Of a DNA stretch of 32,000 bases, positions 9,307 through 27,656 are shown piece by piece; position 1 is the stretch's first letter; the number at the start of each line of letters is the position of its first letter. A program made the position numbers and the translations under genes. The DNA is taken from positions 30,001 to 62,000 of the forward strand of contig JAWCFL010000005.1 in the NCBI GenBank assembly GCA_038858525.1, written 5' to 3'. The notes below the pieces were generated by a model that had not been told where the DNA came from, made no database searches, and was given only the letters and a program-made list of their open reading frames with translations. This DNA comes from Candidatus Jordarchaeales archaeon (GTDB lineage Archaea; Asgardarchaeota; Jordiarchaeia; Jordiarchaeales; Freyrarchaeaceae).

Positions 9307-9633
9307 TCACCGTTGTCCTCTAACCTTAAGTTGGTTAAGCGGTATTCTGTAAGCTCCTTCCCTATCTGATACTATAGGTGGAGCACCCTTAAAAAGGGCT
9401 TCAAGGTCTATTTCAAATACTCCTCTATGCAGAATTCTTACAGTTTCTACCTTCTCCCTATTTTGCCTTATTGGAAGCAGGTTCTTTTCTTCCTCCCTTT
9501 TTTCCTCCTCTTTTCCTTCGCGCACGAGTTTGAAGACGTTAGAACCACATGCCGGGCAGCTCAGCTTGCTGTACCCTTCAGGTATCCTTTCGCCACATGC
9601 TACACAGACGTTGTAGAAGTTCACTTCGTGCAC
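9307..9633 (-). CDS. oapC: Zn-ribbon domain protein (DUF2072, OapC-like)
   Basis: CxxC...CPxCG followed by VETVRILHRGVFEIDLEALF...GAYRI. Third gene of the GTPase-DUF2073-Zn ribbon trio. Confidence 0.88.
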   Translation of the reverse strand: MHEVNFYNVCVACGERIPEGYSKLSCPACGSNVFKLVREGKEEEKREEEKNLLPIRQNREKVETVRILHRGVFEIDLEALFKGAPPIVSDREGAYRIPLNQLKVRGQR

Positions 9634-9938
9634 CCCGCCACGTACATCAGGGATATAAAGTCTCCTTCCTTTGTTACCGCCACAATGTCGGATGGCGCTA
9701 CAACGGTTATTTTGCCCCCTTTCTTCTCTCCATTAAAAGTGATCACTTCTATCCCGTTAAACTCCTTGAAGTCGATCTCCAGCATGGTTTCCTTTATGAG
9801 TTCAGCTTGCTCCTCGGGTTTCAGCCTCTCCTCCAAAACAAGTATACTTTTTCCCTTCACTCTCTCAATGATCATTTTAACCTTATCATTGGGGCTTAAT
9901 CTCCTAGTAACCTTCTCGGAGATTATATCTATCTTCAA
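9621..9938 (-). CDS. oapB: DUF2073 protein (OapB-like)
   Basis: IDIISE...KVKMIIERVK...ILVLEERLKPEEQAELIKETM...EFNGIE...ITVVAPS. Confidence 0.9.
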   Translation of the reverse strand: MKIDIISEKVTRRLSPNDKVKMIIERVKGKSILVLEERLKPEEQAELIKETMLEIDFKEFNGIEVITFNGEKKGGKITVVAPSDIVAVTKEGDFISLMYVAGCTK

Positions 9939-9951
9939 GGCGTCACTCCTC

Positions 9952-10557
9952 CTAGCAGGACTCCGCTATTGCCTTGTAAAGCTCCTCCATATTGTCTCCC
10001 CGGAGGGCGGATACACATACAACCTTGTAGCCTGGGAAAGATTCCCTTATAAGTTCAGGCCGAGCCTCTGGAAGGTCGATCTTGTTTGCGACGAGGATCG
10101 TCGGTATCCTCTTAGCCTTCAAATTCCCTAGTATTATGAGGTTAACTTGGTCAAAGGGAACTTTTGTCGCATCAAAAACCGTTAAAGCTAGGTCTATGTT
10201 GTCGAGCCACTGTATGGCCTCTATGACACCACGCGTGGCCTCCTTAGCTCTCTCTACAGCCTCCTCCTCATTCAATCCGTATTTCATGAAGTCTCTATAA
10301 TCTACCTTGCTAGCTATTCCCGGCATGTCAACTAGGTCTACGTTAACTCCCTTGCCGTTAAACCTTATGTTAACCTGTCTAGCAATAGTCGCCTTTCTTG
10401 TCTCGTGAGGTATAGGCGATACGGTGCCAATCTCAACACCCAAAAAATCCAAGGATATTCTGTTGGCAAGTGTTGTCTTACCTGCATTGGGCGCCCCATA
10501 AACCCCTAAAACTAAGCTCTGCCTCTTCTTAAGCATCCTCGAAATCTTGTCGAGCAA
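9952..10557 (-). CDS. oapA: Era-like small GTP-binding protein (OapA-like)
   Basis: G1 GAPNAGKT, G2 PHETR, G3 DMPG, G4 NKID, G5 SAL, plus EATRGVIEAIQWLD typical of this family. Confidence 0.92.
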   Translation of the reverse strand: MLDKISRMLKKRQSLVLGVYGAPNAGKTTLANRISLDFLGVEIGTVSPIPHETRKATIARQVNIRFNGKGVNVDLVDMPGIASKVDYRDFMKYGLNEEEAVERAKEATRGVIEAIQWLDNIDLALTVFDATKVPFDQVNLIILGNLKAKRIPTILVANKIDLPEARPELIRESFPGYKVVCVSALRGDNMEELYKAIAESC

Positions 10558-11755: not shown

Positions 11756-13141
11756 ATGGGGGGTTACGGGTTGGTGGAGATCAAAGAAATCCTCCCTGGA
11801 CGCTTCGAGAGGATAGGAGCCCACTCCCACATAAAGGGGCTTGGGCTACGTGGGCTCAAAGCTGAATTAGTTGCTGACGGTATGGTTGGCCAAACCGAGG
11901 CAAGGGAAGCGGCGGGCATAGTGGTCAGAATGATAAGAGAAGGCAAAATGGCTGGAAGAGCTGTGCTTCTAGCGGGTCCACCCGGAACAGGCAAGACCGC
12001 TATCGCCATTGCCATAGCCAAGGAGCTCGGGCCTGATGTTCCAGTCGTGATGATCACGGGGTCAGAAATATATTCTGAGGAGATCAAGAAGACAGAGATC
12101 CTGACGCAAGTGATGCGGAAAGCGATAGGCGTCAGGATACATGAAATGAAGAAGATATACGAAGGTGTCGTCAAGAGCTTGGATGTGACTATGGCCAAAA
12201 ACCCCTACAACCCGTACCAGCAGGTCCCTCAGTCAGCAAAAGTAACCATTGCTACGAAGGACGAGTCGAAGACGTTCGAGGTTGGACAGACGATAGCTAT
12301 ACGCCTGATCAATGAAGGCGTCAGCGTGGGCGACGTCATAATGATAGATGCAGAAACAGGCAGGGTTACCCGCCTCGGAAAGGCTGAGTCACCTGAAGTC
12401 AAGCGGTATGACATAGAAGCGGAGAAGCCCATTCCGGTTCCAACAGGTCCCATACTGAAGGAAAAGGAGTTCGTTTACACGTTAACCCTCCACGACCTCG
12501 ACGAGATAAACGCTAGGAGAAGTAGCTTTTCAATATTCAGCATATTCGGAGGCGGAAGAGAAGAGAAAGAGATCGATCCTGAGATACGAGAAAGAGTAAA
12601 TCAAATGGTGAAAAGCATGGTCGAAGAGGGACGGGCGGAGATACTGCCAGGCGTCTGCTTCATCGACGAAAGCCACATGCTCGACATTGAAGCATACAGC
12701 TTCATAGCCAGAGCAATGGAGTCTGACCTAGCGCCAATAATAATACTCGCGTCGAACAGGGGCTTCACTAAGATAAGAGGAACAGAGCTGGTGTCACCAC
12801 ACGGAATGCCACTCGACCTGCTAGACAGGCTCCTCATAATAAACACTCGGCCATACAACGAGGAGGAAATCAGGGAAATACTCAAAATAAGAGCAAAGGA
12901 AGAAAAGATAGAGATAGAAGAGGAAGCCCTAGAATACCTAACCCAAATAGGGGTAAAGACTAGTCTCCGTTACGCTGTGCAGCTCCTAACGCCAAGCATG
13001 GAACATGCTAAAGAGGCGGGACACAAGAAAATAACTAAAGAAGATGTGCAGTGGGTGGAGAAACTCTTCGCCGATGTCAAGCGCTCAGCTAACTATGTGA
13101 GAAACCTAGAAAGAGAATTCATGATTTCAGAGCCAGCATAA
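11756..13141 (+). CDS. TIP49/RuvB-like AAA+ ATPase (RuvBL1/2 homologue)
   Basis: RIGAHSHIKGLGL, Walker A GPPGTGKT, Walker B FIDESHMLD, sensor ASNRG, GMPLDLLDR, TSLRYAVQLL. Confidence 0.98.
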   Translation: MGGYGLVEIKEILPGRFERIGAHSHIKGLGLRGLKAELVADGMVGQTEAREAAGIVVRMIREGKMAGRAVLLAGPPGTGKTAIAIAIAKELGPDVPVVMITGSEIYSEEIKKTEILTQVMRKAIGVRIHEMKKIYEGVVKSLDVTMAKNPYNPYQQVPQSAKVTIATKDESKTFEVGQTIAIRLINEGVSVGDVIMIDAETGRVTRLGKAESPEVKRYDIEAEKPIPVPTGPILKEKEFVYTLTLHDLDEINARRSSFSIFSIFGGGREEKEIDPEIRERVNQMVKSMVEEGRAEILPGVCFIDESHMLDIEAYSFIARAMESDLAPIIILASNRGFTKIRGTELVSPHGMPLDLLDRLLIINTRPYNEEEIREILKIRAKEEKIEIEEEALEYLTQIGVKTSLRYAVQLLTPSMEHAKEAGHKKITKEDVQWVEKLFADVKRSANYVRNLEREFMISEPA

Positions 13142-14861: not shown

Positions 14862-14946
14862 CGGCCCCGAGGGGATTCGAACCCCCGACACCCGGCTTAG
14901 GAGGCCGGTACCCTCTCAGAACACATCCTGGCTGGGTTACGGGGCC
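14862..14946 (-). tRNA. tRNA-Arg(CCT) with a 10-nt D-loop intron (14915-14924, position 20a/21)
   Basis: GGCCCCG TA ACCC AGCCAGGAT [GTGTTCTGAG] A GGGT A CCGGC CT CCT AA GCCGG GTGTC GGGGG TTCGAAT CCCCT CGGGGCC G. All four stems pair and the mature length is 75 nt. Confidence 0.95.
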
Positions 14947-14974
14947 ACAACCAATAAAATCCTAAACCTCGCAC

Positions 14975-14990
14975 TTTTTTAACTCTTTTC
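14975..14990 (-). promoter_or_regulatory. BRE-TATA promoter of tRNA-Arg
   Basis: Minus strand GAAAAGAG-TTAAAAAA, about 30 nt upstream of tRNA position 1. Confidence 0.6.
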
Positions 14991-15002
14991 CCCCGAAGCT
15001 AC

Positions 15003-15018
15003 GAGAAAAATTTAAGTA
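15003..15018 (+). promoter_or_regulatory. BRE-TATA promoter of tRNA-Gly
   Basis: GAGAAAAA-TTTAAGTA, about 30 nt upstream of 15047. Confidence 0.65.
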
Positions 15019-15046
15019 TGATAGCCGCTTTTACCCAGACTTGGGC

Positions 15047-15143
15047 GCGGGCGTAGTCCAGCCTGGTCTAAGACGTCGGCCTGCCACGCCGAGGACCCGG
15101 GCGGCTAACACAAAGCCAGGGACTTCAAATCCCGGCGCCCGCA
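15047..15143 (+). tRNA. tRNA-Gly(GCC) with a 22-nt T-arm intron (15102-15123, position 53/54)
   Basis: GCGGGCG TA GTCC AGCCTGGTCTA AGAC G TCGGC CT GCC AC GCCGA GGAC CCGGG [CGGCTAACACAAAGCCAGGGAC] TTCAAAT CCCGG CGCCCGC A. Confidence 0.95.
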
Positions 15144-15291
15144 TTCTTAAATTCGTTTAATTTTCATATGAGTTGTTATAGTGATTGTTACTCGTCACTT
15201 ACCCTCTTCTCTTTGACCTGTTTGTGTTATCTGTGCAGTTTCTGAGATAAGTTTTTGCTTCTTTTCGAGATAAGAAGAAAAAGTGTGAGTG

Positions 15292-16128
15292 TTATATTCT
15301 TGTTTTCAGCCATTGGTCTATGTCTTCGAGGACTTTCTTTTTTTCTATCTCGTTGAGTATTTCGTGGTACATACCGTTGTAGACTTTCATTGTAATTTTT
15401 CCTTTTTTTGCTTTCTCTGCTAGTTCCATGCTTCCTTTAGGGTTAACCAGTTTGTCTTCTCCAGCTACTAATAGTAATGTTGGAACTTCGAGTTTGTCGG
15501 CGTTTTCAAGGATCATGTTCATGGCCCTGACAAACTCTACAACGAATCTGACTGTGATTGTCTTGAATATTAGTGGGTCATTAGCGTAAGCTTCGCAGAC
15601 CTTTTTGTCATGAGATAAAGTGTAAGGGTCTATTTGACTTGGGATCTCCTGTTTGGGGTTGGTTTTCGCGAGCTCCTCGAGCATTTTCAGAGTTCCAGCA
15701 TCAATTTCGCTTGCGAGTCTCAAAGCTGGGGAGGAAAGGATCAAATAATCTATTTTGTTCGGGCTCTTAAGTGCGTACATTAAAGCTATTGTCCCACCCA
15801 TACTGTGGCCGAGAAGAACGAATTTCTTTCCTGTCTCTTTTTTCTTAACTATACCGATGAAGGTGTCGAGGTCCTCTACGTAGTCATCAAATCTATCCAC
15901 ATATCCCCTATCTCCCTCAGAGAGCCCATGGCCCCTGTGGTCTAGCGCGTAAAACGCGATTCCTTCGCTAGCGAAGTGCTCTGCTACATGTTTGTATCTT
16001 CCTGAGTACTCAGCTAAGCCATGCGCTAACACCATGACTGCTCTAACTTGCTCAGGTTTCCAAGACTGGTAATACAATTTTAATCCGCCTTTTCCCTTAA
16101 ACTCTCCCTCCTCATGAACAACTTTCAA
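15292..16128 (-). CDS. Alpha/beta hydrolase, lysophospholipase/monoacylglycerol lipase family
   Basis: HGLAEYSGRY, DHRGHGLSEG, nucleophile GHSMGG, acid AGEDKLV, YHEILNE. Confidence 0.96.
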   Translation of the reverse strand: MKVVHEEGEFKGKGGLKLYYQSWKPEQVRAVMVLAHGLAEYSGRYKHVAEHFASEGIAFYALDHRGHGLSEGDRGYVDRFDDYVEDLDTFIGIVKKKETGKKFVLLGHSMGGTIALMYALKSPNKIDYLILSSPALRLASEIDAGTLKMLEELAKTNPKQEIPSQIDPYTLSHDKKVCEAYANDPLIFKTITVRFVVEFVRAMNMILENADKLEVPTLLLVAGEDKLVNPKGSMELAEKAKKGKITMKVYNGMYHEILNEIEKKKVLEDIDQWLKTRI

Positions 16129-16394
16129 CTTTCATCCCTCCGTTTTCTCCTCTATCAAGAGCAATAAACTTCCAGTATCATTGTTAATTTAAAAATTTGG
16201 GTTCAACCTCCGTAAATTATGCTTTACTACCAAAAACGCTTATATTTGTCATCTTTGCTATTTTGTTATCTTGTGAGCTCTTTAAAGGGTGGAAAGTGGC
16301 TTCAAAAACGAGATGGATGAAGCTCCGTAACTATTTGCCCTAGCGCTCTTTTCCATCCTTAAAGAGCTAACTAGCAATGAAACATAGGTGAAGG

Positions 16395-16751
16395 TTGAAA
16401 ATGTATATTAGAAATAGTAATAAGTCTGCGATTGCTCGCGTTGAGAGAGGCAGAATAATGACTAGTGGTGGAAGCACCCTCGGCTACGTCGAGAACGGCA
16501 GAGTAATGAACTCCAGTAGAAGCACGATAGGGTACGTAGAAAGAGGATACATAATGAACCCAAGTAGAAGTACCATAGGAAGATATGACAGAAGCAGAAT
16601 TATGTCCTCATCTGGTTCAACTCGTTTTTATCTCGAAGGAAGAAGCATCATGGCAAGCAACCGGTCAACTATAGGTTACACAGACGAAAACATAGAAAAC
16701 TACTTGGAAGAAGTGGTGGCTTACGTTGTCTTTTTTTCTAACTGGTGGTGA
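16395..16751 (+). CDS. Small 16-aa tandem-repeat protein (beta-flower-like)
   Basis: Six imperfect repeats of xIMxSxxSTIGYVExG followed by an acidic/hydrophobic C-terminal helix, with RBS GGTGAAGG. Confidence 0.75.
   Translation: MKMYIRNSNKSAIARVERGRIMTSGGSTLGYVENGRVMNSSRSTIGYVERGYIMNPSRSTIGRYDRSRIMSSSGSTRFYLEGRSIMASNRSTIGYTDENIENYLEEVVAYVVFFSNWW
16401..16691 (+). repeat. Degenerate 48-nt coding tandem repeat, about 6 copies
   Basis: Repeats RIMTSGGSTLGYVENG / RVMNSSRSTIGYVERG / YIMNPSRSTIGRYDRS / RIMSSSGSTRFYLEGR / SIMASNRSTIGYTDEN. Confidence 0.8.
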
Positions 16752-17016
16752 AAAGCTCTCTTCCCCTCTTTTTCTTTTCCATGTTGTTTCCGTTTTCGGA
16801 AGCATCCCGAATTCTCGGTTGGCAGGATCGAAAATGGCTGTCCTTCCTCATATCGTAACAACCAATTTTTTGTCTTAAATCTGTCCAGAAGGGGATGCTA
16901 AGTCAAACCTTAATATCCCTTGTAATCCTATTAATTGCTAACTCCACTTTCCCTTAGACCTCTTTTTTCATGCTTTCACAGGCATACCTTAATTCAATTT
17001 GGTATCAGGGAATAAA

Positions 17017-17032
17017 AGAAAGAAATATATAA
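17017..17032 (+). promoter_or_regulatory. BRE-TATA promoter of tRNA-Trp
   Basis: Purine-rich AGAAAGAA followed by ATATATAA, about 27-34 nt upstream of 17059. Confidence 0.65.
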
Positions 17033-17058
17033 CGTAGCAGTGAAAGATTTCCCTTGAT

Positions 17059-17257
17059 GGGGGCGTAGCGCAGCTAGAACGGCTTATAAAAAGTGGTAAA
17101 GTAGCGCGGCTGGCTCCAGAAGCAATGAGAACAAACTGGTGCGCTGACCGGAGATGATGACCTTCTGGAGCTCCGAGCTGGAGAGGAGTACCCCCAGAAG
17201 CACCAGTTGGTCGTGGGTTCACCCTTTACAGGGGGCCTTAAAGTCCCACCGCCCCCA
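17059..17257 (+). tRNA. tRNA-Trp(CCA) with four introns: 17078-17100 (18/19), 17120-17201 (37/38, containing nested 17184-17199) and 17221-17240 (56/57)
   Basis: Spliced product: GGGGGCG TA GCGC AGCTAG|GTA GCGC G GCTGG CT CCA G|A CCAGT TGGTC GTGGG TTC|AAGT CCCAC CGCCCCC A. This is a 74-nt canonical cloverleaf (199-23-82-20=74). Confidence 0.93.
17121..17179 (+). ncRNA. Intron-encoded box C/D guide RNA for tRNA-Trp Cm34 and Cm39
   Basis: AGC stem, C ATGAGAA, 12-nt guide CAAACTGGTGCG, D' CTGA, spacer, C' ATGATGA, 12-nt guide CCTTCTGGAGCT, D CCGA, GCT stem. The N+5 rule lands on C39 (17203) and C34 (17116). Confidence 0.92.
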
Positions 17258-18347: not shown

Positions 18348-18962
18348 TTGGAAAGGGAGGAGTTAAATGTGCGTTTATGGTTACTTGATATTCTTGCTTG
18401 TCCGGCTGATGGATGTAAGCATTATCCATTAAAGCTTTCGATATTCGAGTGGGAGGACGATAGCGCAAAACGAATATTAAATGCAGGTGAGTCCTACGCT
18501 AAGGGTGATGTTGGAAATATGAAGAAAGAGTTGAAAGGTAGCGTTAAAGTTGATAAAGCTAAGGAAATAGTGGAGGATGAGTTAGCTAGGTCGTCTATGG
18601 AAGTAAATAAGTATATCTCTCTCTTTAAGGAGAAAGTGAATAGCATTTTTAGGAACGTAGTTGTAGATGAAACTGGGGCCTCTACTCAGTTAATAAACGC
18701 GATAATTAACTTCAACCCTCCTTCTAGCCTTGATGAGCCGTTCGAGAAAGCTATATACCTCGCTAATTGGCTTGCCTTCAAGGTGAACGTGCAAAGCGGG
18801 ATTTTAGTTTGCGAGAAATGCGGCCGCTTCTATCCGATAATAGAGACGATCCCCCATATGTTACCTGACGACTTGAGAGACAAAAAGGAGGATAAAGAGT
18901 TCCTTTCGAAGTGGCGGAAGTTTGTTCCAAAAAAGATACTAGAAGCGGAAGGCATCACGTAG
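18348..18962 (+). CDS. trm112: Trm112-family methyltransferase activator, long form with helical insertion
   Basis: RLWLLDILACP...HYPLKL at the N-terminus and VQSGILVCEKCGRFYPIIETIPHMLPD at the C-terminus. Probable start is the GTG at 18369, after GGGAGGAG. Confidence 0.88.
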   Translation: MEREELNVRLWLLDILACPADGCKHYPLKLSIFEWEDDSAKRILNAGESYAKGDVGNMKKELKGSVKVDKAKEIVEDELARSSMEVNKYISLFKEKVNSIFRNVVVDETGASTQLINAIINFNPPSSLDEPFEKAIYLANWLAFKVNVQSGILVCEKCGRFYPIIETIPHMLPDDLRDKKEDKEFLSKWRKFVPKKILEAEGIT

Positions 18963-24298: not shown

Positions 24299-24880
24299 AT
24301 GGAAGAGACAAATACTCTTAAAGAAACCGTTAAAGAACTAGACCAATCGGCAAAGCTGATAAGAGACCTCGTATCCAACCTTATAAAGCTGAGGCATAGC
24401 CTCCTAAAAGCATACTCGGGCCTCAGTAAACTCTTAGAGGAACCCGAACTCATGAAGCCAGCAGCCCCCTCACCTACGCCTCTACCCGCGCCCCCCTCGC
24501 CTCCGACACCCACCCCTCAACAAGCCGAGGAAGCCCCTTCAACTCCTCCCGCAACTGCAGTTCTCCCTGTACAGCCTCCAGTCGCTCCTCCCACGGCACC
24601 CCACGCAGTTGAGGAGGTTCTCGTTGAAGGAGAAATGGCTAATTTCGTAACAGCTTTCTCGGGGTCAATAAAGTCTGACCCGCATGTTTCCAATGTCATC
24701 AAAAAACTAAATGAGTTTAAAGAGAAAATTGAGAAAAAATACGTTTACCACCCTGTTCTTTCAGAGGTCAAGCTAGCTATTTCGAAGCTCCAAGGCATGC
24801 CTGGGGATAGCGTGCTGAGCGAGAGTGACGTGAATGAAATTCTGAGAAAACTTTCGAACTGGGTTTCCCGGCTTTCATAG
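24299..24880 (+). CDS. Hypothetical protein: N-terminal coiled coil, polyproline linker, C-terminal helical bundle
   Basis: RBS GGAAGGTG and linker PAAPSPTPLPAPPSPPTPTP...PVQPPVAPP. The stop overlaps the convergent gene. Confidence 0.85.
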   Translation: MEETNTLKETVKELDQSAKLIRDLVSNLIKLRHSLLKAYSGLSKLLEEPELMKPAAPSPTPLPAPPSPPTPTPQQAEEAPSTPPATAVLPVQPPVAPPTAPHAVEEVLVEGEMANFVTAFSGSIKSDPHVSNVIKKLNEFKEKIEKKYVYHPVLSEVKLAISKLQGMPGDSVLSESDVNEILRKLSNWVSRLS

Positions 24881-26227
24881 TTTTTTAGTGACCACTCTTA
24901 CCTCGGAGAACCTTACTGAGGGAGAAACTAGGTAAGCGTATTTTCTCACGTCATCCGCGACTCCATCGACTCTTTTAAGCATCTCATAGAAGTTATCTGC
25001 TATCATTACTCCCTTGGCCGCCCCGAGCACCTCTCCGTTCTTGACCACCCAGCATGGGTTTGCAACAACACTTATTTCCCCCGATACCGAGTTACTTGAG
25101 TGAGCTCCCTGCACATCCCAAACGATTAATCCATCATCAATTTCTTCGATGAGCTTTTCACGGCTAAGAAGCCCCTTCTCTACTACAAGGTTTGTCGCAG
25201 CTATGTGTGGAGTCGAAGAATAACTCCCCCTTCCAGCATTACCCGTCGACTCGACACCTGCCACGCCGCCCCAATAGTTGTCAAACAAGAACCCCCTCAG
25301 AACCCCCCTATCGATTATTACCTTTCTTTGACTTGGAACCCCCTCACCGTCAAAGGGAAAAGTGTTGAGCCCCCCCTCAAGTGTCCCGTCATCCATGACG
25401 TGAAGCAAACTTGATGCCACCTGCTCTCCGAGCCTCTCAGTATATGGGGACCTTTCCCTTATCACGTTGTCCCCCGATATGGCCTGCAGAAAAGTGTAGC
25501 CGATCAAAGCGTGGAGAGCAGGGTGGGAAAGGATCACCGTGCACTGTCCTTGTTTCGCCTCTGCTTTCCGTAGGGACTCAACGGCCAGCCTTGCAGCTTC
25601 CCTTCCAACTTTCTCTGGATTTATTCTTTTGCTTCTTTGGAAGTCAAACTCGCTGCACTCGGAAGACACTTCTTCGCCATCCTTAGCTACCGTTCCAAGG
25701 GCGCATCCCATCACCGTTCCCTTAGCATTTACGTTTAAGCCGTGAGTGTTCATCACGGCTACTTCACCCCACTCACTCACCGTCACCCCCCAGTATGCTG
25801 AAACCTTGCTACTATAATCCGTCGCAGCGTTAAGCATTGTTTTGGCGTGCTCAACGAGCTCCTCCTCAGTCGTCTCACAAACCCTATTGTCAAATATTCC
25901 TGAGACTACAGTTGGCTTCTTCGGTGATGGTAGCCCCCTCCACTTTTCGTCGGGTTTACTCGCCTTCGCAGCTTTGACAGCCCTCACTACAACGTCTTCT
26001 AGTTTGCTTCTCTCTAAGCTATTCGAGAAGCTGAAGCCGACCGATCCCTTCACAACGACCCTTAATCCAACTCCTTGTTCGTCTGAGAAATGGCAGGAGG
26101 AAACCTGACCAAGGTTAACTTCAACTCTCAGTTCCCTGCCGTAACTATAATACACTTCCGCCTCATCCGCCCCTTGCCTCTCAGCGTAGCCGAGAATCCA
26201 CTCAACCAACCCGGCTCTCTCACTCAA
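24875..26227 (-). CDS. pmbA: TldD/PmbA family protein, PmbA-type (non-catalytic) subunit
   Basis: DEAEVY, GVGLRVVV, FDGEGVP, GNAGR, TNLVV; it lacks the HExxGH motif. Confidence 0.92.
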   Translation of the reverse strand: MSERAGLVEWILGYAERQGADEAEVYYSYGRELRVEVNLGQVSSCHFSDEQGVGLRVVVKGSVGFSFSNSLERSKLEDVVVRAVKAAKASKPDEKWRGLPSPKKPTVVSGIFDNRVCETTEEELVEHAKTMLNAATDYSSKVSAYWGVTVSEWGEVAVMNTHGLNVNAKGTVMGCALGTVAKDGEEVSSECSEFDFQRSKRINPEKVGREAARLAVESLRKAEAKQGQCTVILSHPALHALIGYTFLQAISGDNVIRERSPYTERLGEQVASSLLHVMDDGTLEGGLNTFPFDGEGVPSQRKVIIDRGVLRGFLFDNYWGGVAGVESTGNAGRGSYSSTPHIAATNLVVEKGLLSREKLIEEIDDGLIVWDVQGAHSSNSVSGEISVVANPCWVVKNGEVLGAAKGVMIADNFYEMLKRVDGVADDVRKYAYLVSPSVRFSEVRVVTKKL

Positions 26228-27656
26228 CTCTCATCCCTCCAACGAGCATCCTACTACACCTTATGTGTGGCCCGCCATCCCCCACGTTTACTGTTTGGCC
26301 TTTGCCGCACCACCCAACGTTGAGCTTAAAGTCATTTCCAACAGCATCAACGTGCATGAGCGTCTCAAGCGTGTTCCCGCTAATGGAAAGGTTCCTAACA
26401 GGCCTGCCCACCTCCCCGTTCACCACCTCGTAAGCCCTCTGGACGCCAACCTGAAATGTCCCGTCAAGGTTCGCCTGCCCACCTCTAAAGCTCTCAAGAA
26501 GATAACCGAATGATAAGTCCTCGATCATCTCTTCAAGCGTCCAGTCTCCGGGAGCTATACAAGTGTTCCTCATTCTCACAAGTGGAGGGACTCTAAAACT
26601 TTCAGCCCTAGCGTTCCCCGTAGGTTTAGTGTTAAACTCCTCATCCACCTTAAGGTGAAGCCTATCAACCATCTTTTGAATCTTGGCAGCGGTCTCCCTA
26701 TCATACATCAACCCGACCACACGTCCCTCCTTCACTATCACGCTTTTTTGCGCCTTCACCCCCTCATCATCATACCTGAAGCTTCCAAAGCCCCCCTCTA
26801 TTGTCGCGTCGTCGAATATGTTCACCAGAGGTGAGGCAACTTTTTCTCCCAGCTTACAAAGAAGTAGTCCGCCTGCAAGCGCTGAGTCAGCTTCCGCAAG
26901 GTGTCCAAATGCTTCGTGAACCAGCACGCCCGTCACGTTCGGCCCCATTACTACAGGGAAAACACCCCCCTTCGGAGTGACCGCATCCAACTGTTCAAGG
27001 AGAGCACGTGAAATTCTCTCTGCAAGCTCATCGGGCGGATTCTCTCTCCAAACCTTGAATCCTTTAATTGACCCTAACTCCTCCCTGTAAGTGGCGTAAA
27101 TGCTTCCTTCCTTTGCAGTAGCCACAGCCCTACCCCAAACATACAGCACGTCCTGAACTATTCTCGCCCCATCGCTATTAAAGTACCATTTTTTTCCGTA
27201 AACGTCGCTGTAGCTGAAGTTGAAGCTTTTGATTCTGTCACTAGAAGAAAATATGGCTCTTCCAAGCTTCAAAAACATCTCTATCTTGTCGTCTATTTCC
27301 ACATCGGCAGGATTCTCGTCGGCCTTCACATACACCCTATCCACGGACGCCTCAACGTCAGCTAGCTCCACACTCTCCTTAACCGCCCGACTCGCCGCGG
27401 TAGCCAGCTTCACCGCGCTCGTACAAGCCTCCCTCAGCCTCTCAAGACTACTAGTGGATGCAAATCCCCATGCTCCACTTGATATTACACGTATGGAGAA
27501 TCCACGGTCAACTCCCTGTTTCACTGCTCTAACGCGCTCATCCTCTATCTCCAACGATGTTTCCATGAGCTCTTCTCCTCTGATTTCCACGTAGCTGGCC
27601 CCTAGACTAAGTCCGTAGTCAACTGTTCTTATCAGTTCATCCTCCATTGATGCCAC
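26220..27656 (-). CDS. tldD: TldD/PmbA family metalloprotease, TldD-type subunit
   Basis: GVLVHEAFGHLAEAD zinc motif, YDDEGV, TGNARA, RMRNT, CGKGQ, GGPH. Confidence 0.95.
   Translation of the reverse strand: MASMEDELIRTVDYGLSLGASYVEIRGEELMETSLEIEDERVRAVKQGVDRGFSIRVISSGAWGFASTSSLERLREACTSAVKLATAASRAVKESVELADVEASVDRVYVKADENPADVEIDDKIEMFLKLGRAIFSSSDRIKSFNFSYSDVYGKKWYFNSDGARIVQDVLYVWGRAVATAKEGSIYATYREELGSIKGFKVWRENPPDELAERISRALLEQLDAVTPKGGVFPVVMGPNVTGVLVHEAFGHLAEADSALAGGLLLCKLGEKVASPLVNIFDDATIEGGFGSFRYDDEGVKAQKSVIVKEGRVVGLMYDRETAAKIQKMVDRLHLKVDEEFNTKPTGNARAESFRVPPLVRMRNTCIAPGDWTLEEMIEDLSFGYLLESFRGGQANLDGTFQVGVQRAYEVVNGEVGRPVRNLSISGNTLETLMHVDAVGNDFKLNVGWCGKGQTVNVGDGGPHIRCSRMLVGGMRVE

What the first reader, a model, noticed from the sequence alone, without database searches (positions are those of the whole stretch)
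14862..17257. All three tRNA genes in the window carry non-canonical introns
There are six introns in three tRNAs, at 18/19, 20a/21, 37/38, nested, 53/54 and 56/57. I saw no shared sequence among them. This suggests a lineage-wide burst of intron gain and predicts a broad-specificity splicing endonuclease (alpha2beta2 or epsilon2 type rather than the strict alpha2/alpha4 types). It also suggests many tRNAs in this genome are unannotated. Protection of tRNA genes from viral integration is one proposed driver.
Basis: inference. Interest (0 to 1): 0.65.

Follow-up and report, generated by a model that had tools for sequence, protein, structure and literature searches.

The report
Intron-riddled tRNA genes of Jordarchaeia
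The three tRNA genes really are broken by six small tRNA-type introns, and every tRNA gene I could find in this Asgard (Jordarchaeia) genome is broken too, but this trait has already been published for the lineage.

Summary
Observation confirmed. The window holds tRNA-Arg(CCU) with a 10-nt intron at 20a/21, tRNA-Gly(GCC) with a 22-nt intron at 53/54, and tRNA-Trp(CCA) with introns at 18/19, 37/38 and 56/57 plus a 16-nt intron nested in the 37/38 one.

- **Independent check:** compact orthologues in other Asgard genomes lack exactly the 10 and the 22 bases.
- **Conservation:** Trp orthologues in four relatives keep the exons invariant, and the helix of the nested intron covaries.
- **Genome-wide:** my own intron-tolerant search found 34 credible tRNA genes, all interrupted. 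They carry 83 introns (2.4 per gene), only 12 of them at 37/38. A reversed-genome control gave 0 loci. ARAGORN and the Rfam tRNA model find only a handful.
- **Splicing enzyme:** EndA has two subunits. One is Aeropyrum-like, with the catalytic Tyr/His/Lys and the crenarchaeal specific loop. The other lacks the His. RtcB is present.
- **Organism:** the EndA alpha subunit is 91% identical to that of a Candidatus Jordarchaeia MAG.

Small extras are a box C/D guide in the Trp intron (predicted Cm34 and Cm39) and the nested intron. Earlier notes of this scan report tRNA-type introns in protein genes elsewhere in this genome.

The parts
14862..14946 (-). tRNA-Arg(CCU) gene (position 1 at 14946, discriminator G at 14862)
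   Evidence: Hand parse and parser. Orthologues in G001-G003 and a compact G032 gene (A2). ARAGORN miscalls it Leu-GAG.
14915..14924 (-). 10-nt D-loop intron at 20a/21. It forms a minimal helix-bulge structure: central helix CAGG/TCTG, no inner helix.
   Evidence: Exactly these bases are missing from the compact G032 orthologue; G002 has 11 nt here. BHB class 'weak' (H=4).
15047..15143 (+). tRNA-Gly(GCC) gene
   Evidence: Rfam RF00005 scores 41.8 bits with a 29-nt T-loop insert. Parser result.
15102..15123 (+). 22-nt intron at 53/54, relaxed BHB (3-bp central helix, 4-bp inner helix GGCT/AGCC)
   Evidence: Exactly absent from two compact G014 genes. The inner helix changes compensatorily in G002 (GGTT/AACC). 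G003 has an unrelated sequence at the same site (A3).
17059..17257 (+). tRNA-Trp(CCA) gene: four exons (17059-17077, 17101-17119, 17202-17220, 17241-17257)
   Evidence: Hand parse and parser. Exons are invariant in five genomes (A1).
17078..17100 (+). 23-nt D-loop intron at 18/19, weak BHB (3 of 4 central pairs, 2-bp inner helix)
   Evidence: Splicing gives the D loop AGCTAGGTA. Orthologues keep the site, with lengths of 15-23 nt.
17120..17201 (+). 82-nt canonical 37/38 intron. It forms a full hBHBh' motif (CTCC/GGAG, bulges AG^A and GC^A) only after the nested intron is removed.
   Evidence: BHB geometry worked out output. The raw sequence scores class 0. Conserved in G001-G004.
17184..17199 (+). 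16-nt intron nested in the 37/38 intron, between its central-helix strand and its 3' bulge; own BHB with CTGG/CCAG
   Evidence: a=125, b=141, H=4. The helix covaries as CTGG/CCAG in G000 and G003 versus CCGG/CCGG in G001 and G002.
17122..17176 (+). Box C/D guide RNA inside the Trp intron. C-like box at 17122-17130, D' box CTGA at 17144-17147, C' box ATGATGA at 17154-17160, D-like box CCGA at 17173-17176. Guide 17161-17172 targets C34 (17116); guide 17133-17143 targets C39 (17203).
   Evidence: Boxes and guides are invariant in five genomes. In G004 a guide change (A to G) matches a target change at position 43 (T to C). Below-threshold Rfam hits in the intron are almost all archaeal C/D sRNA families, e.g. 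sR40 at 17121-17177, E 0.026, 22 bits against a cut-off of 50. Fibrillarin is present.
17221..17240 (+). 20-nt T-loop intron at 56/57, BHB with 4-bp central and 5-bp inner helix
   Evidence: Kept in all five orthologues, with sequence drift.

Best explanation
These are ordinary, essential, single-copy tRNA genes of an Asgard archaeon of the class Jordarchaeia (also called Freyarchaeia or Jordiarchaeia), and nearly every tRNA gene in that lineage is interrupted.

Inferred mechanism: each insert is a protein-spliced archaeal intron. The precursor folds so that both splice sites lie in 3-nt bulges flanking a 4-bp helix (a bulge-helix-bulge motif, often relaxed). The heterotetrameric (alpha-beta)2 EndA, whose alpha subunit carries the crenarchaeal-type specific loop that permits non-canonical sites, cuts both bulges. 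RtcB then joins the exons.

In pre-tRNA-Trp the 37/38 intron is also a box C/D guide RNA. With fibrillarin, Nop5 and L7Ae it should direct 2'-O-methylation of C34 and C39. Its 3' splice-site motif forms only once a nested 16-nt intron has been cut out, which implies ordered splicing.

Shown here: the gene structures, motifs, conservation, covariation, and presence of the enzymes. Inferred: actual cleavage, ligation, methylation and their order.
For: - **Cloverleaves:** spliced products are perfect cloverleaves.
- **Motif-free support:** compact orthologues lack exactly the 10-nt and 22-nt inserts.
- **Conservation:** five-genome Trp alignment has invariant exons and drifting introns, with compensatory changes in the nested helix, in the Gly inner helix, and in one guide-target pair.
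- **Genome-wide:** 34 of 34 tRNA genes are interrupted, with 83 introns and 63 at relaxed or strict BHB; the reversed-genome control gave 0 loci.
- **Composition:** introns are 52% G+C, exons 68%.
- **Enzymes:** EndA alpha matches 3P1Z_B at E 1.6e-48, with the loop and catalytic triad; beta lacks the His. RtcB and fibrillarin are present.
- **Taxon:** EndA alpha is 91% identical to a Ca. Jordarchaeia MAG.
- **Literature:** PMC11291895 reports 92-95% of tRNA genes with introns in Atabeyarchaeia and Freyarchaeia. bioRxiv 10.64898/2026.10.13.758758 reports 2.0-2.4 intervening sequences per gene in Jordiarchaeia and a two-subunit EndA in 44 of 60 genomes.
Against: - No RNA data were examined, so splicing, ligation and methylation are inferred.
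- Two D-loop introns (Arg 20a/21, Trp 18/19) have only weak motifs.
- The 10-nt intron is one base shorter than the 11-129 nt range in the 2014 review (PMC4090602).
- The terminal C and D boxes of the Trp guide are degenerate, and Rfam C/D models score below threshold.
- My census is incomplete: about 34-35 of an expected 43 or so genes. Some multi-intron parses and anticodon calls are ambiguous (two loci are called Pro-TGG).
- BHB was used as a filter in part of the parser.
Confidence: 0.9

Rival explanations
1. The short D-loop inserts (10 nt in Arg, 23 nt in Trp) are not removed. They stay in the mature tRNA as enlarged D loops, which is how tRNAscan-SE output depicts such cases.
For: Their BHB motifs are weak (class 1). 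The 2026 preprint notes that D-arm inserts are left inside the 'mature' tRNA by the annotator.
Against: Compact orthologues lack exactly the 10 nt. The inserts separate G18/G19 or A21 from the rest of the loop, which would disturb the D-loop/T-loop contacts. The central helix is 4 of 4 pairs in Arg. Insert length and sequence drift while the flanking bases stay invariant.
Confidence: 0.06
2. The 16-nt element in the Trp intron is not a separately excised nested intron. It is a hairpin tolerated within the 3' bulge region, and EndA cuts the outer sites in one step.
For: Broad-specificity (alpha-beta)2 enzymes accept relaxed motifs (PMC3241643, PMC5829648). No RNA evidence for a two-step pathway was examined. 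The family-level relative G004 has no nested element; it carries a separate intron at 42/43 instead.
Against: The element has its own complete motif: a 4-bp helix flanked by 3-nt bulges on opposite strands. That helix covaries across the genus. Its removal creates a textbook hBHBh' for the outer intron, with 5 outer, 4 central and 3 inner pairs. Without removal, the outer 3' site scores class 0.
Confidence: 0.35
3. The interrupted genes are pseudogenes or assembly artefacts of a metagenome-assembled genome, and functional copies lie elsewhere.
For: The genome is a 63-contig draft, 92.7% complete.
Against: The same interrupted structures occur at syntenic places in four other assemblies, with invariant exons. 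No intron-free tRNA of any kind was found in 2.09 Mb by three methods. Published closed genomes of the sister family show the same trait (PMC11291895).
Confidence: 0.02

Closest known systems
Heavily interrupted tRNA genes of Freyarchaeia/Jordarchaeia and Atabeyarchaeia (Valentin-Alvarado et al. 2024, PMC11291895; Goswami et al. 2026 preprint, 10.64898/2026.10.13.758758)
   Same: Same lineage and same trait. Nearly all tRNA genes are interrupted, more than half carry several introns, and the sites are mostly non-canonical (D-arm, T-arm). The published burden is 2.0-2.4 per gene; mine is 2.44. D-arm inserts are missed by annotators, EndA has two subunits, and no sequence is shared between introns.
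   Different: Nothing essential. This is another draft genome of the hot-spring family. The papers I read do not mention the box C/D guide or a nested intron in tRNA-Trp.
Multi-intron tRNA genes of Thermoproteales (Marck & Grosjean 2003; Sugahara 2008; Fujishima 2010; reviewed in PMC4090602)
   Same: Relaxed BHB introns at many non-canonical positions, up to several per gene, processed by an (alpha-beta)2 EndA with the crenarchaeal specific loop. The alpha subunit here is most similar to the Aeropyrum pernix enzyme (3P1Z_B).
   Different: A different phylum (Asgard) and a higher burden: 100% of the genes found here against about 70%. I found no sign here of the intron-to-intron sequence similarity reported for Thermoproteales.
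Box C/D guide in the pre-tRNA-Trp intron of Euryarchaeota (Clouet d'Orval 2001; Singh 2004; cited in PMC4090602)
   Same: A 37/38 intron of about 65 nt after nested removal. It has C/D'/C'/D boxes and two roughly 12-nt guides whose duplexes span the exon-intron junctions and select positions 34 and 39.
   Different: The terminal C and D boxes are degenerate. Position 39 is C, not U. The intron itself is interrupted by a nested 16-nt BHB intron. The host is an Asgard archaeon.

Membership tests
Archaeal protein-spliced (BHB) tRNA introns | Removing the insert restores a canonical cloverleaf with the conserved nucleotides | tested here: met
   All three genes do so: U8, A14, G18G19, A21, U33, G53-C61, TTCRA T loop, and perfect 7-bp acceptor stems.
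Archaeal protein-spliced (BHB) tRNA introns | Splice sites lie in two 3-nt bulges on opposite strands of a 4-bp helix (strict or relaxed BHB) | tested here: met
   Strict or relaxed for 53/54, 56/57, the nested intron, and 37/38 after nested removal. Only weak for Arg 20a/21 (central helix 4 of 4, no flanking helices) and Trp 18/19 (3 of 4). Genome-wide, 63 of 83 are relaxed or strict, against 1.8% for slid boundaries.
Archaeal protein-spliced (BHB) tRNA introns | The insert is absent from orthologous compact genes (motif-free evidence) | tested here: met
   Arg: G032 lacks the 10 nt. Gly: G014 lacks the 22 nt. Not tested for the Trp introns, because no compact Trp orthologue was fetched.
Archaeal protein-spliced (BHB) tRNA introns | Excision and exon ligation are observed in RNA | not testable with these tools
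(alpha-beta)2 heterotetrameric EndA | Two distinct full-length paralogues, one catalytic and one structural | tested here: met
   Exactly two PF01974 hits, of 191 and 198 aa, each with N- and C-terminal domains. Alpha keeps Tyr/His/Lys; beta has Ala at the His position.
(alpha-beta)2 heterotetrameric EndA | Specific loop with a conserved Lys in the alpha subunit (crenarchaeal specific loop, linked to broad substrate range) | tested here: met
   Gap-free alignment to A. pernix 3P1Z_B across GYYGQPLDVEKPRGADFEG; the query reads GFYGQPLGIRKPKTPQFNK. The loop's function is taken from PMC3241643.
(alpha-beta)2 heterotetrameric EndA | Heterotetramer assembly and cleavage of non-canonical sites | not testable with these tools
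   Needs biochemistry.
Box C/D guide sRNA (pre-tRNA-Trp intron type) | C, D', C' and D boxes with guides of about 12 nt | tested here: inconclusive
   D' (CTGA) and C' (ATGATGA) are canonical and invariant. The terminal C (GCAATGAGA region) and D (CCGA, CGGA or TCGA) are degenerate. Spacers are 12 nt and 13-15 nt.
Box C/D guide sRNA (pre-tRNA-Trp intron type) | Guide-target duplexes place positions 34 and 39 at the fifth pair upstream of D and D' | tested here: met
   A 10-11-bp duplex to 17112-17122 selects C34. A 9-bp duplex to 17200-17208 selects C39. One compensatory guide/target change occurs in G004.
Box C/D guide sRNA (pre-tRNA-Trp intron type) | Match to a curated Rfam C/D family above its gathering score | tested here: not met
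   The best hit is sR40 at 22.3 bits against a cut-off of 50 (E 0.026). Nine of 11 weak hits are C/D-box families on the sense strand of the intron.

The most novel reading that the evidence does not exclude
The box C/D-bearing 37/38 intron of pre-tRNA-Trp contains a true intron within an intron. The 16-nt inner BHB intron must be excised and religated before the outer 3' splice site can form, which imposes an obligatory order (inner splicing, then outer splicing, possibly timed around guide-directed methylation of C34 and C39). The papers I could search do not describe such nested BHB introns in a tRNA.
Probability: 0.5. Interest if true: 0.45.

Novelty: already known. Interest (0 to 1): 0.28.

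Why it matters
The closest archaeal relatives of eukaryotes carry the heaviest tRNA-intron load known. It shows how far a two-subunit EndA, similar to the eukaryotic Sen complex, can be stretched, and it breaks standard annotation. In this 2.09-Mb genome ARAGORN and the Rfam tRNA model find only a handful of roughly 45 expected genes, so automated 'missing tRNA' calls for such MAGs are artefacts. None of this is new for the lineage.

The value here is threefold: an independent, motif-checked confirmation in one more genome; the Trp intron detail (C/D guide plus nested intron); and a link to this scan's earlier notes that the same splicing system may also act on mRNAs in this genome.

Tried and rejected
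- **Standard tRNA finders.** ARAGORN with introns allowed made 11 calls. The Arg gene was mistyped as Leu, the initiator Met was given a mismatched acceptor stem, and C27 Pro and C7 Met look spurious. The Rfam tRNA model gave 5 hits above cut-off and nothing new at E<=10.
- **First version of my parser.** With T8 required and at most one intron per zone it found 27 genes. Allowing many BHB jumps overfitted: Trp was mis-read as Val or Pro, and His/Asp was ambiguous. I therefore ranked by fewest jumps and overrode Trp by hand.
- **Unresolved or unsearched.** One clear tRNA at G000:C1:109836-110030 has a perfect acceptor stem, an intact T arm and an encoded CCA, but I could not parse it. About 10 isoacceptors remain unfound. 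Introns in acceptor stems and two introns in one arm were not searched.
- **Screen for mRNA introns in this window.** I looked for strict BHB elements whose removal fuses open reading frames. It gave only false positives: the adjacent TldD/PmbA genes at 24875-27656 and the oapA/B/C genes at 9307-10557 are separate complete genes.
- **Tandem reading of the Trp 37/38 region.** Two adjacent introns instead of nested ones fails, because the second step would have no BHB.
- **Intron copying between genes.** No similarity was found.
Full report
**What is there.** ARAGORN sees one tRNA in the window and mistypes it. The Rfam tRNA model sees one other, with a 29-nt 'T loop'. Reading the sequence with the standard bulge-helix-bulge (BHB) geometry gives three genes. 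In that geometry, exon bases -5 to -2 before the 5' cut pair with intron bases -5 to -2 before the 3' cut, and each cut falls after the second base of a 3-nt bulge.

- **tRNA-Arg(CCU), 14862-14946, minus strand.** A 10-nt D-loop intron at 20a/21 (14915-14924).
- **tRNA-Gly(GCC), 15047-15143.** A 22-nt intron at 53/54 (15102-15123).
- **tRNA-Trp(CCA), 17059-17257.** A 23-nt intron at 18/19 (17078-17100), an 82-nt intron at 37/38 (17120-17201), and a 20-nt intron at 56/57 (17221-17240).

The 37/38 intron forms no motif as it stands. Removing a 16-nt element at 17184-17199, which has its own 4-bp helix (CTGG/CCAG) and two 3-nt bulges, produces a textbook hBHBh' motif: CTCC/GGAG, bulges AG^A and GC^A, with the anticodon stem as outer helix.

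**Evidence that does not depend on the motif.** A BLAST of the Arg-Gly region against 40 related genomes found compact genes in other Asgard families. G032 lacks precisely the 10 nt of the Arg intron (A2). G014 lacks precisely the 22 nt of the Gly intron (A3). Within the genus the Gly inner helix changes compensatorily (GGCT/AGCC to GGTT/AACC), and G003 carries an unrelated sequence at the same site.

Trp orthologues from three genomes of the same genus and one of the same family have invariant exons and drifting introns. The nested helix covaries: CTGG/CCAG in two genomes and CCGG/CCGG in two. G003 has a further 16-nt insert in the variable region. G004 has a 42/43 intron in place of the nested one. 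Sites are therefore kept over genus-level time while new ones still arise.

Standard tools nearly fail on the 2.09-Mb assembly. ARAGORN with introns makes 11 calls, several of them wrong. The Rfam tRNA model gives 5 hits over its cut-off and 14 at E<=10.

I wrote an intron-tolerant parser. It takes all 7-bp acceptor pairings with at least 5 G-C pairs within 520 nt. It then parses the D, anticodon, variable and T arms, allowing jumps, and scores each jump for BHB.

- **Yield:** 34 credible loci, every one interrupted.
- **Introns per gene:** 8 genes have one, 8 two, 14 three, 3 four and 1 five. That is 83 introns, or 84 with the nested one, mean 2.44.
- **Location:** 28 in the D arm; 23 in the T arm, with hot spots at 59/60 (12) and 53/54 (8); 15 at non-canonical anticodon-arm sites; 5 in the variable region; and only 12 at 37/38.
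- **Size and composition:** lengths 10-82 nt, median 20. Introns are 52% G+C and exons 68%.
- **Control:** the same pipeline on the reversed, non-complemented genome returned no locus.
- **BHB quality:** 63 of 83 sites are relaxed or strict BHB, against 1.8% when the same introns are slid by 4-9 nt. This contrast is inflated because BHB was partly a filter.
- **No intron-free gene:** ARAGORN's 'intronless' Met is the initiator (A1-U72, three G-C pairs in the anticodon stem) with a 28-nt intron at 58/59.
- **No shared sequence:** introns show no sequence similarity to each other.

The census is incomplete. About 10 isoacceptors are unfound and one evident tRNA on C1 is unparsed. The missing genes are more likely to be more interrupted than less, because intron-free genes are the easiest for all three methods to find.

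**Splicing machinery.** The genome has exactly two EndA homologues, both full length.

- **Alpha subunit (191 aa).** It matches the Aeropyrum pernix catalytic subunit 3P1Z_B at E 1.6e-48. The alignment has no gaps over the crenarchaeal specific loop (query ...IRKPKTPQFNK...), and the Tyr/His/Lys triad is present.
- **Beta subunit (198 aa).** It aligns to M. jannaschii EndA but has Ala where the catalytic His stands.

This is the (alpha-beta)2 architecture that published work ties to non-canonical introns (PMC3241643, PMC5829648). RtcB and fibrillarin are present.

**The Trp intron as a guide RNA.** The intron holds a C-like box (17122-17130), D' CTGA (17144-17147), C' ATGATGA (17154-17160) and a D-like CCGA (17173-17176).

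- The 12-nt guide before the D box pairs with 17112-17122 and puts C34 at the fifth pair.
- The guide before the D' box pairs with 17200-17208 and puts C39 at the fifth pair.
- Both duplexes span exon-intron junctions, as in Pyrococcus and Haloferax pre-tRNA-Trp (Clouet d'Orval 2001, cited in PMC4090602).
- Boxes and guides are invariant in five genomes. In G004 a guide A-to-G change matches the T-to-C change at position 43.
- Rfam gives only below-threshold hits, nearly all to archaeal C/D sRNA families (sR40, 17121-17177, E 0.026).

**Who this is and what is known.** The alpha subunit is 91% identical to that of a 'Candidatus Jordarchaeia' MAG and 77-85% identical to other Jordarchaeia and Freyarchaeota MAGs. 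NCBI places the class in the Asgard kingdom Promethearchaeati.

Valentin-Alvarado et al. 2024 (PMC11291895) reported that 92-95% of tRNA genes in Atabeyarchaeia and Freyarchaeia (their name for Jordarchaeia) carry introns. These are often non-canonical, and more than half of the genes carry several.

A 2026 preprint (10.64898/2026.10.13.758758) counts 2.0-2.4 intervening sequences per gene in Jordiarchaeia. It reports that 97-98% of genes are interrupted, that annotators miss D-arm inserts, that gains were repeated, that there is no copying route, and that a two-subunit EndA occurs in 44 of 60 genomes. My numbers agree. That preprint mentions neither the C/D guide nor nested introns, and a full-text search for 'nested intron' with BHB and tRNA found nothing relevant.

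**Verdict.** The viral-integration idea (Randau and Soll, in PMC4090602) remains untested. The only possibly new detail is the nested intron inside the C/D-bearing Trp intron, which needs RNA evidence.

Earlier notes of this scan (unchecked by me) report many tRNA-type introns in protein-coding genes elsewhere in this genome. My simple screen found none in this window.

Noticed in passing
G000 genome-wide (e.g. C1:25776, C3:53746, C25:8473): 21 of the 34 tRNA genes I parsed encode the 3' CCA in the genome, directly after the discriminator. The three genes in this window do not.
   Followed up: partly
window 16270-16374 (+): A 27-nt imperfect inverted repeat (74% complementary, 51 nt apart) folds into a long stem at -36.3 kcal/mol, z = -3.0. 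It lies just upstream of a 5-fold beta-flower protein gene (16395-16751, PF21785). It could be a regulatory structure or a small RNA.
   Followed up: partly
window 9307-10557 (-): An oapA (GTPase), oapB, oapC operon of 'origin-associated proteins' (PF09846, PF09845), which hints that a replication origin may lie nearby. A TIP49/RuvBL-type AAA+ ATPase (11756-13141, 473 bits) follows.
   Followed up: no
G000:C1:109836-110030 (+): A clear tRNA gene of 191 nt with acceptor GGGGGCG/CGCCCCC, an intact T arm and an encoded CCA. I could not parse it; it probably has several introns in one arm. ARAGORN calls it Leu-TAG with a 105-nt intron.
   Followed up: partly
L013 (G003:C2:56981-57192): The tRNA-Trp of one same-genus genome has an extra 16-nt insert (TTGGTTAAAAGGTTAA) after the anticodon stem that the other four genomes lack. 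This looks like a recent intron gain.
   Followed up: partly
window 24875-27656 (-): Adjacent TldD/PmbA-family metallopeptidase genes overlap by 8 nt. A BHB-like element at the junction (26197-26242) is a chance match, not an intron.
   Followed up: yes
window 18348-18962 (+): In a 204-aa protein, the 40-position Trm112p zinc-ribbon profile matches across residues 12-165. The ribbon therefore appears to be split by a large insertion.
   Followed up: no
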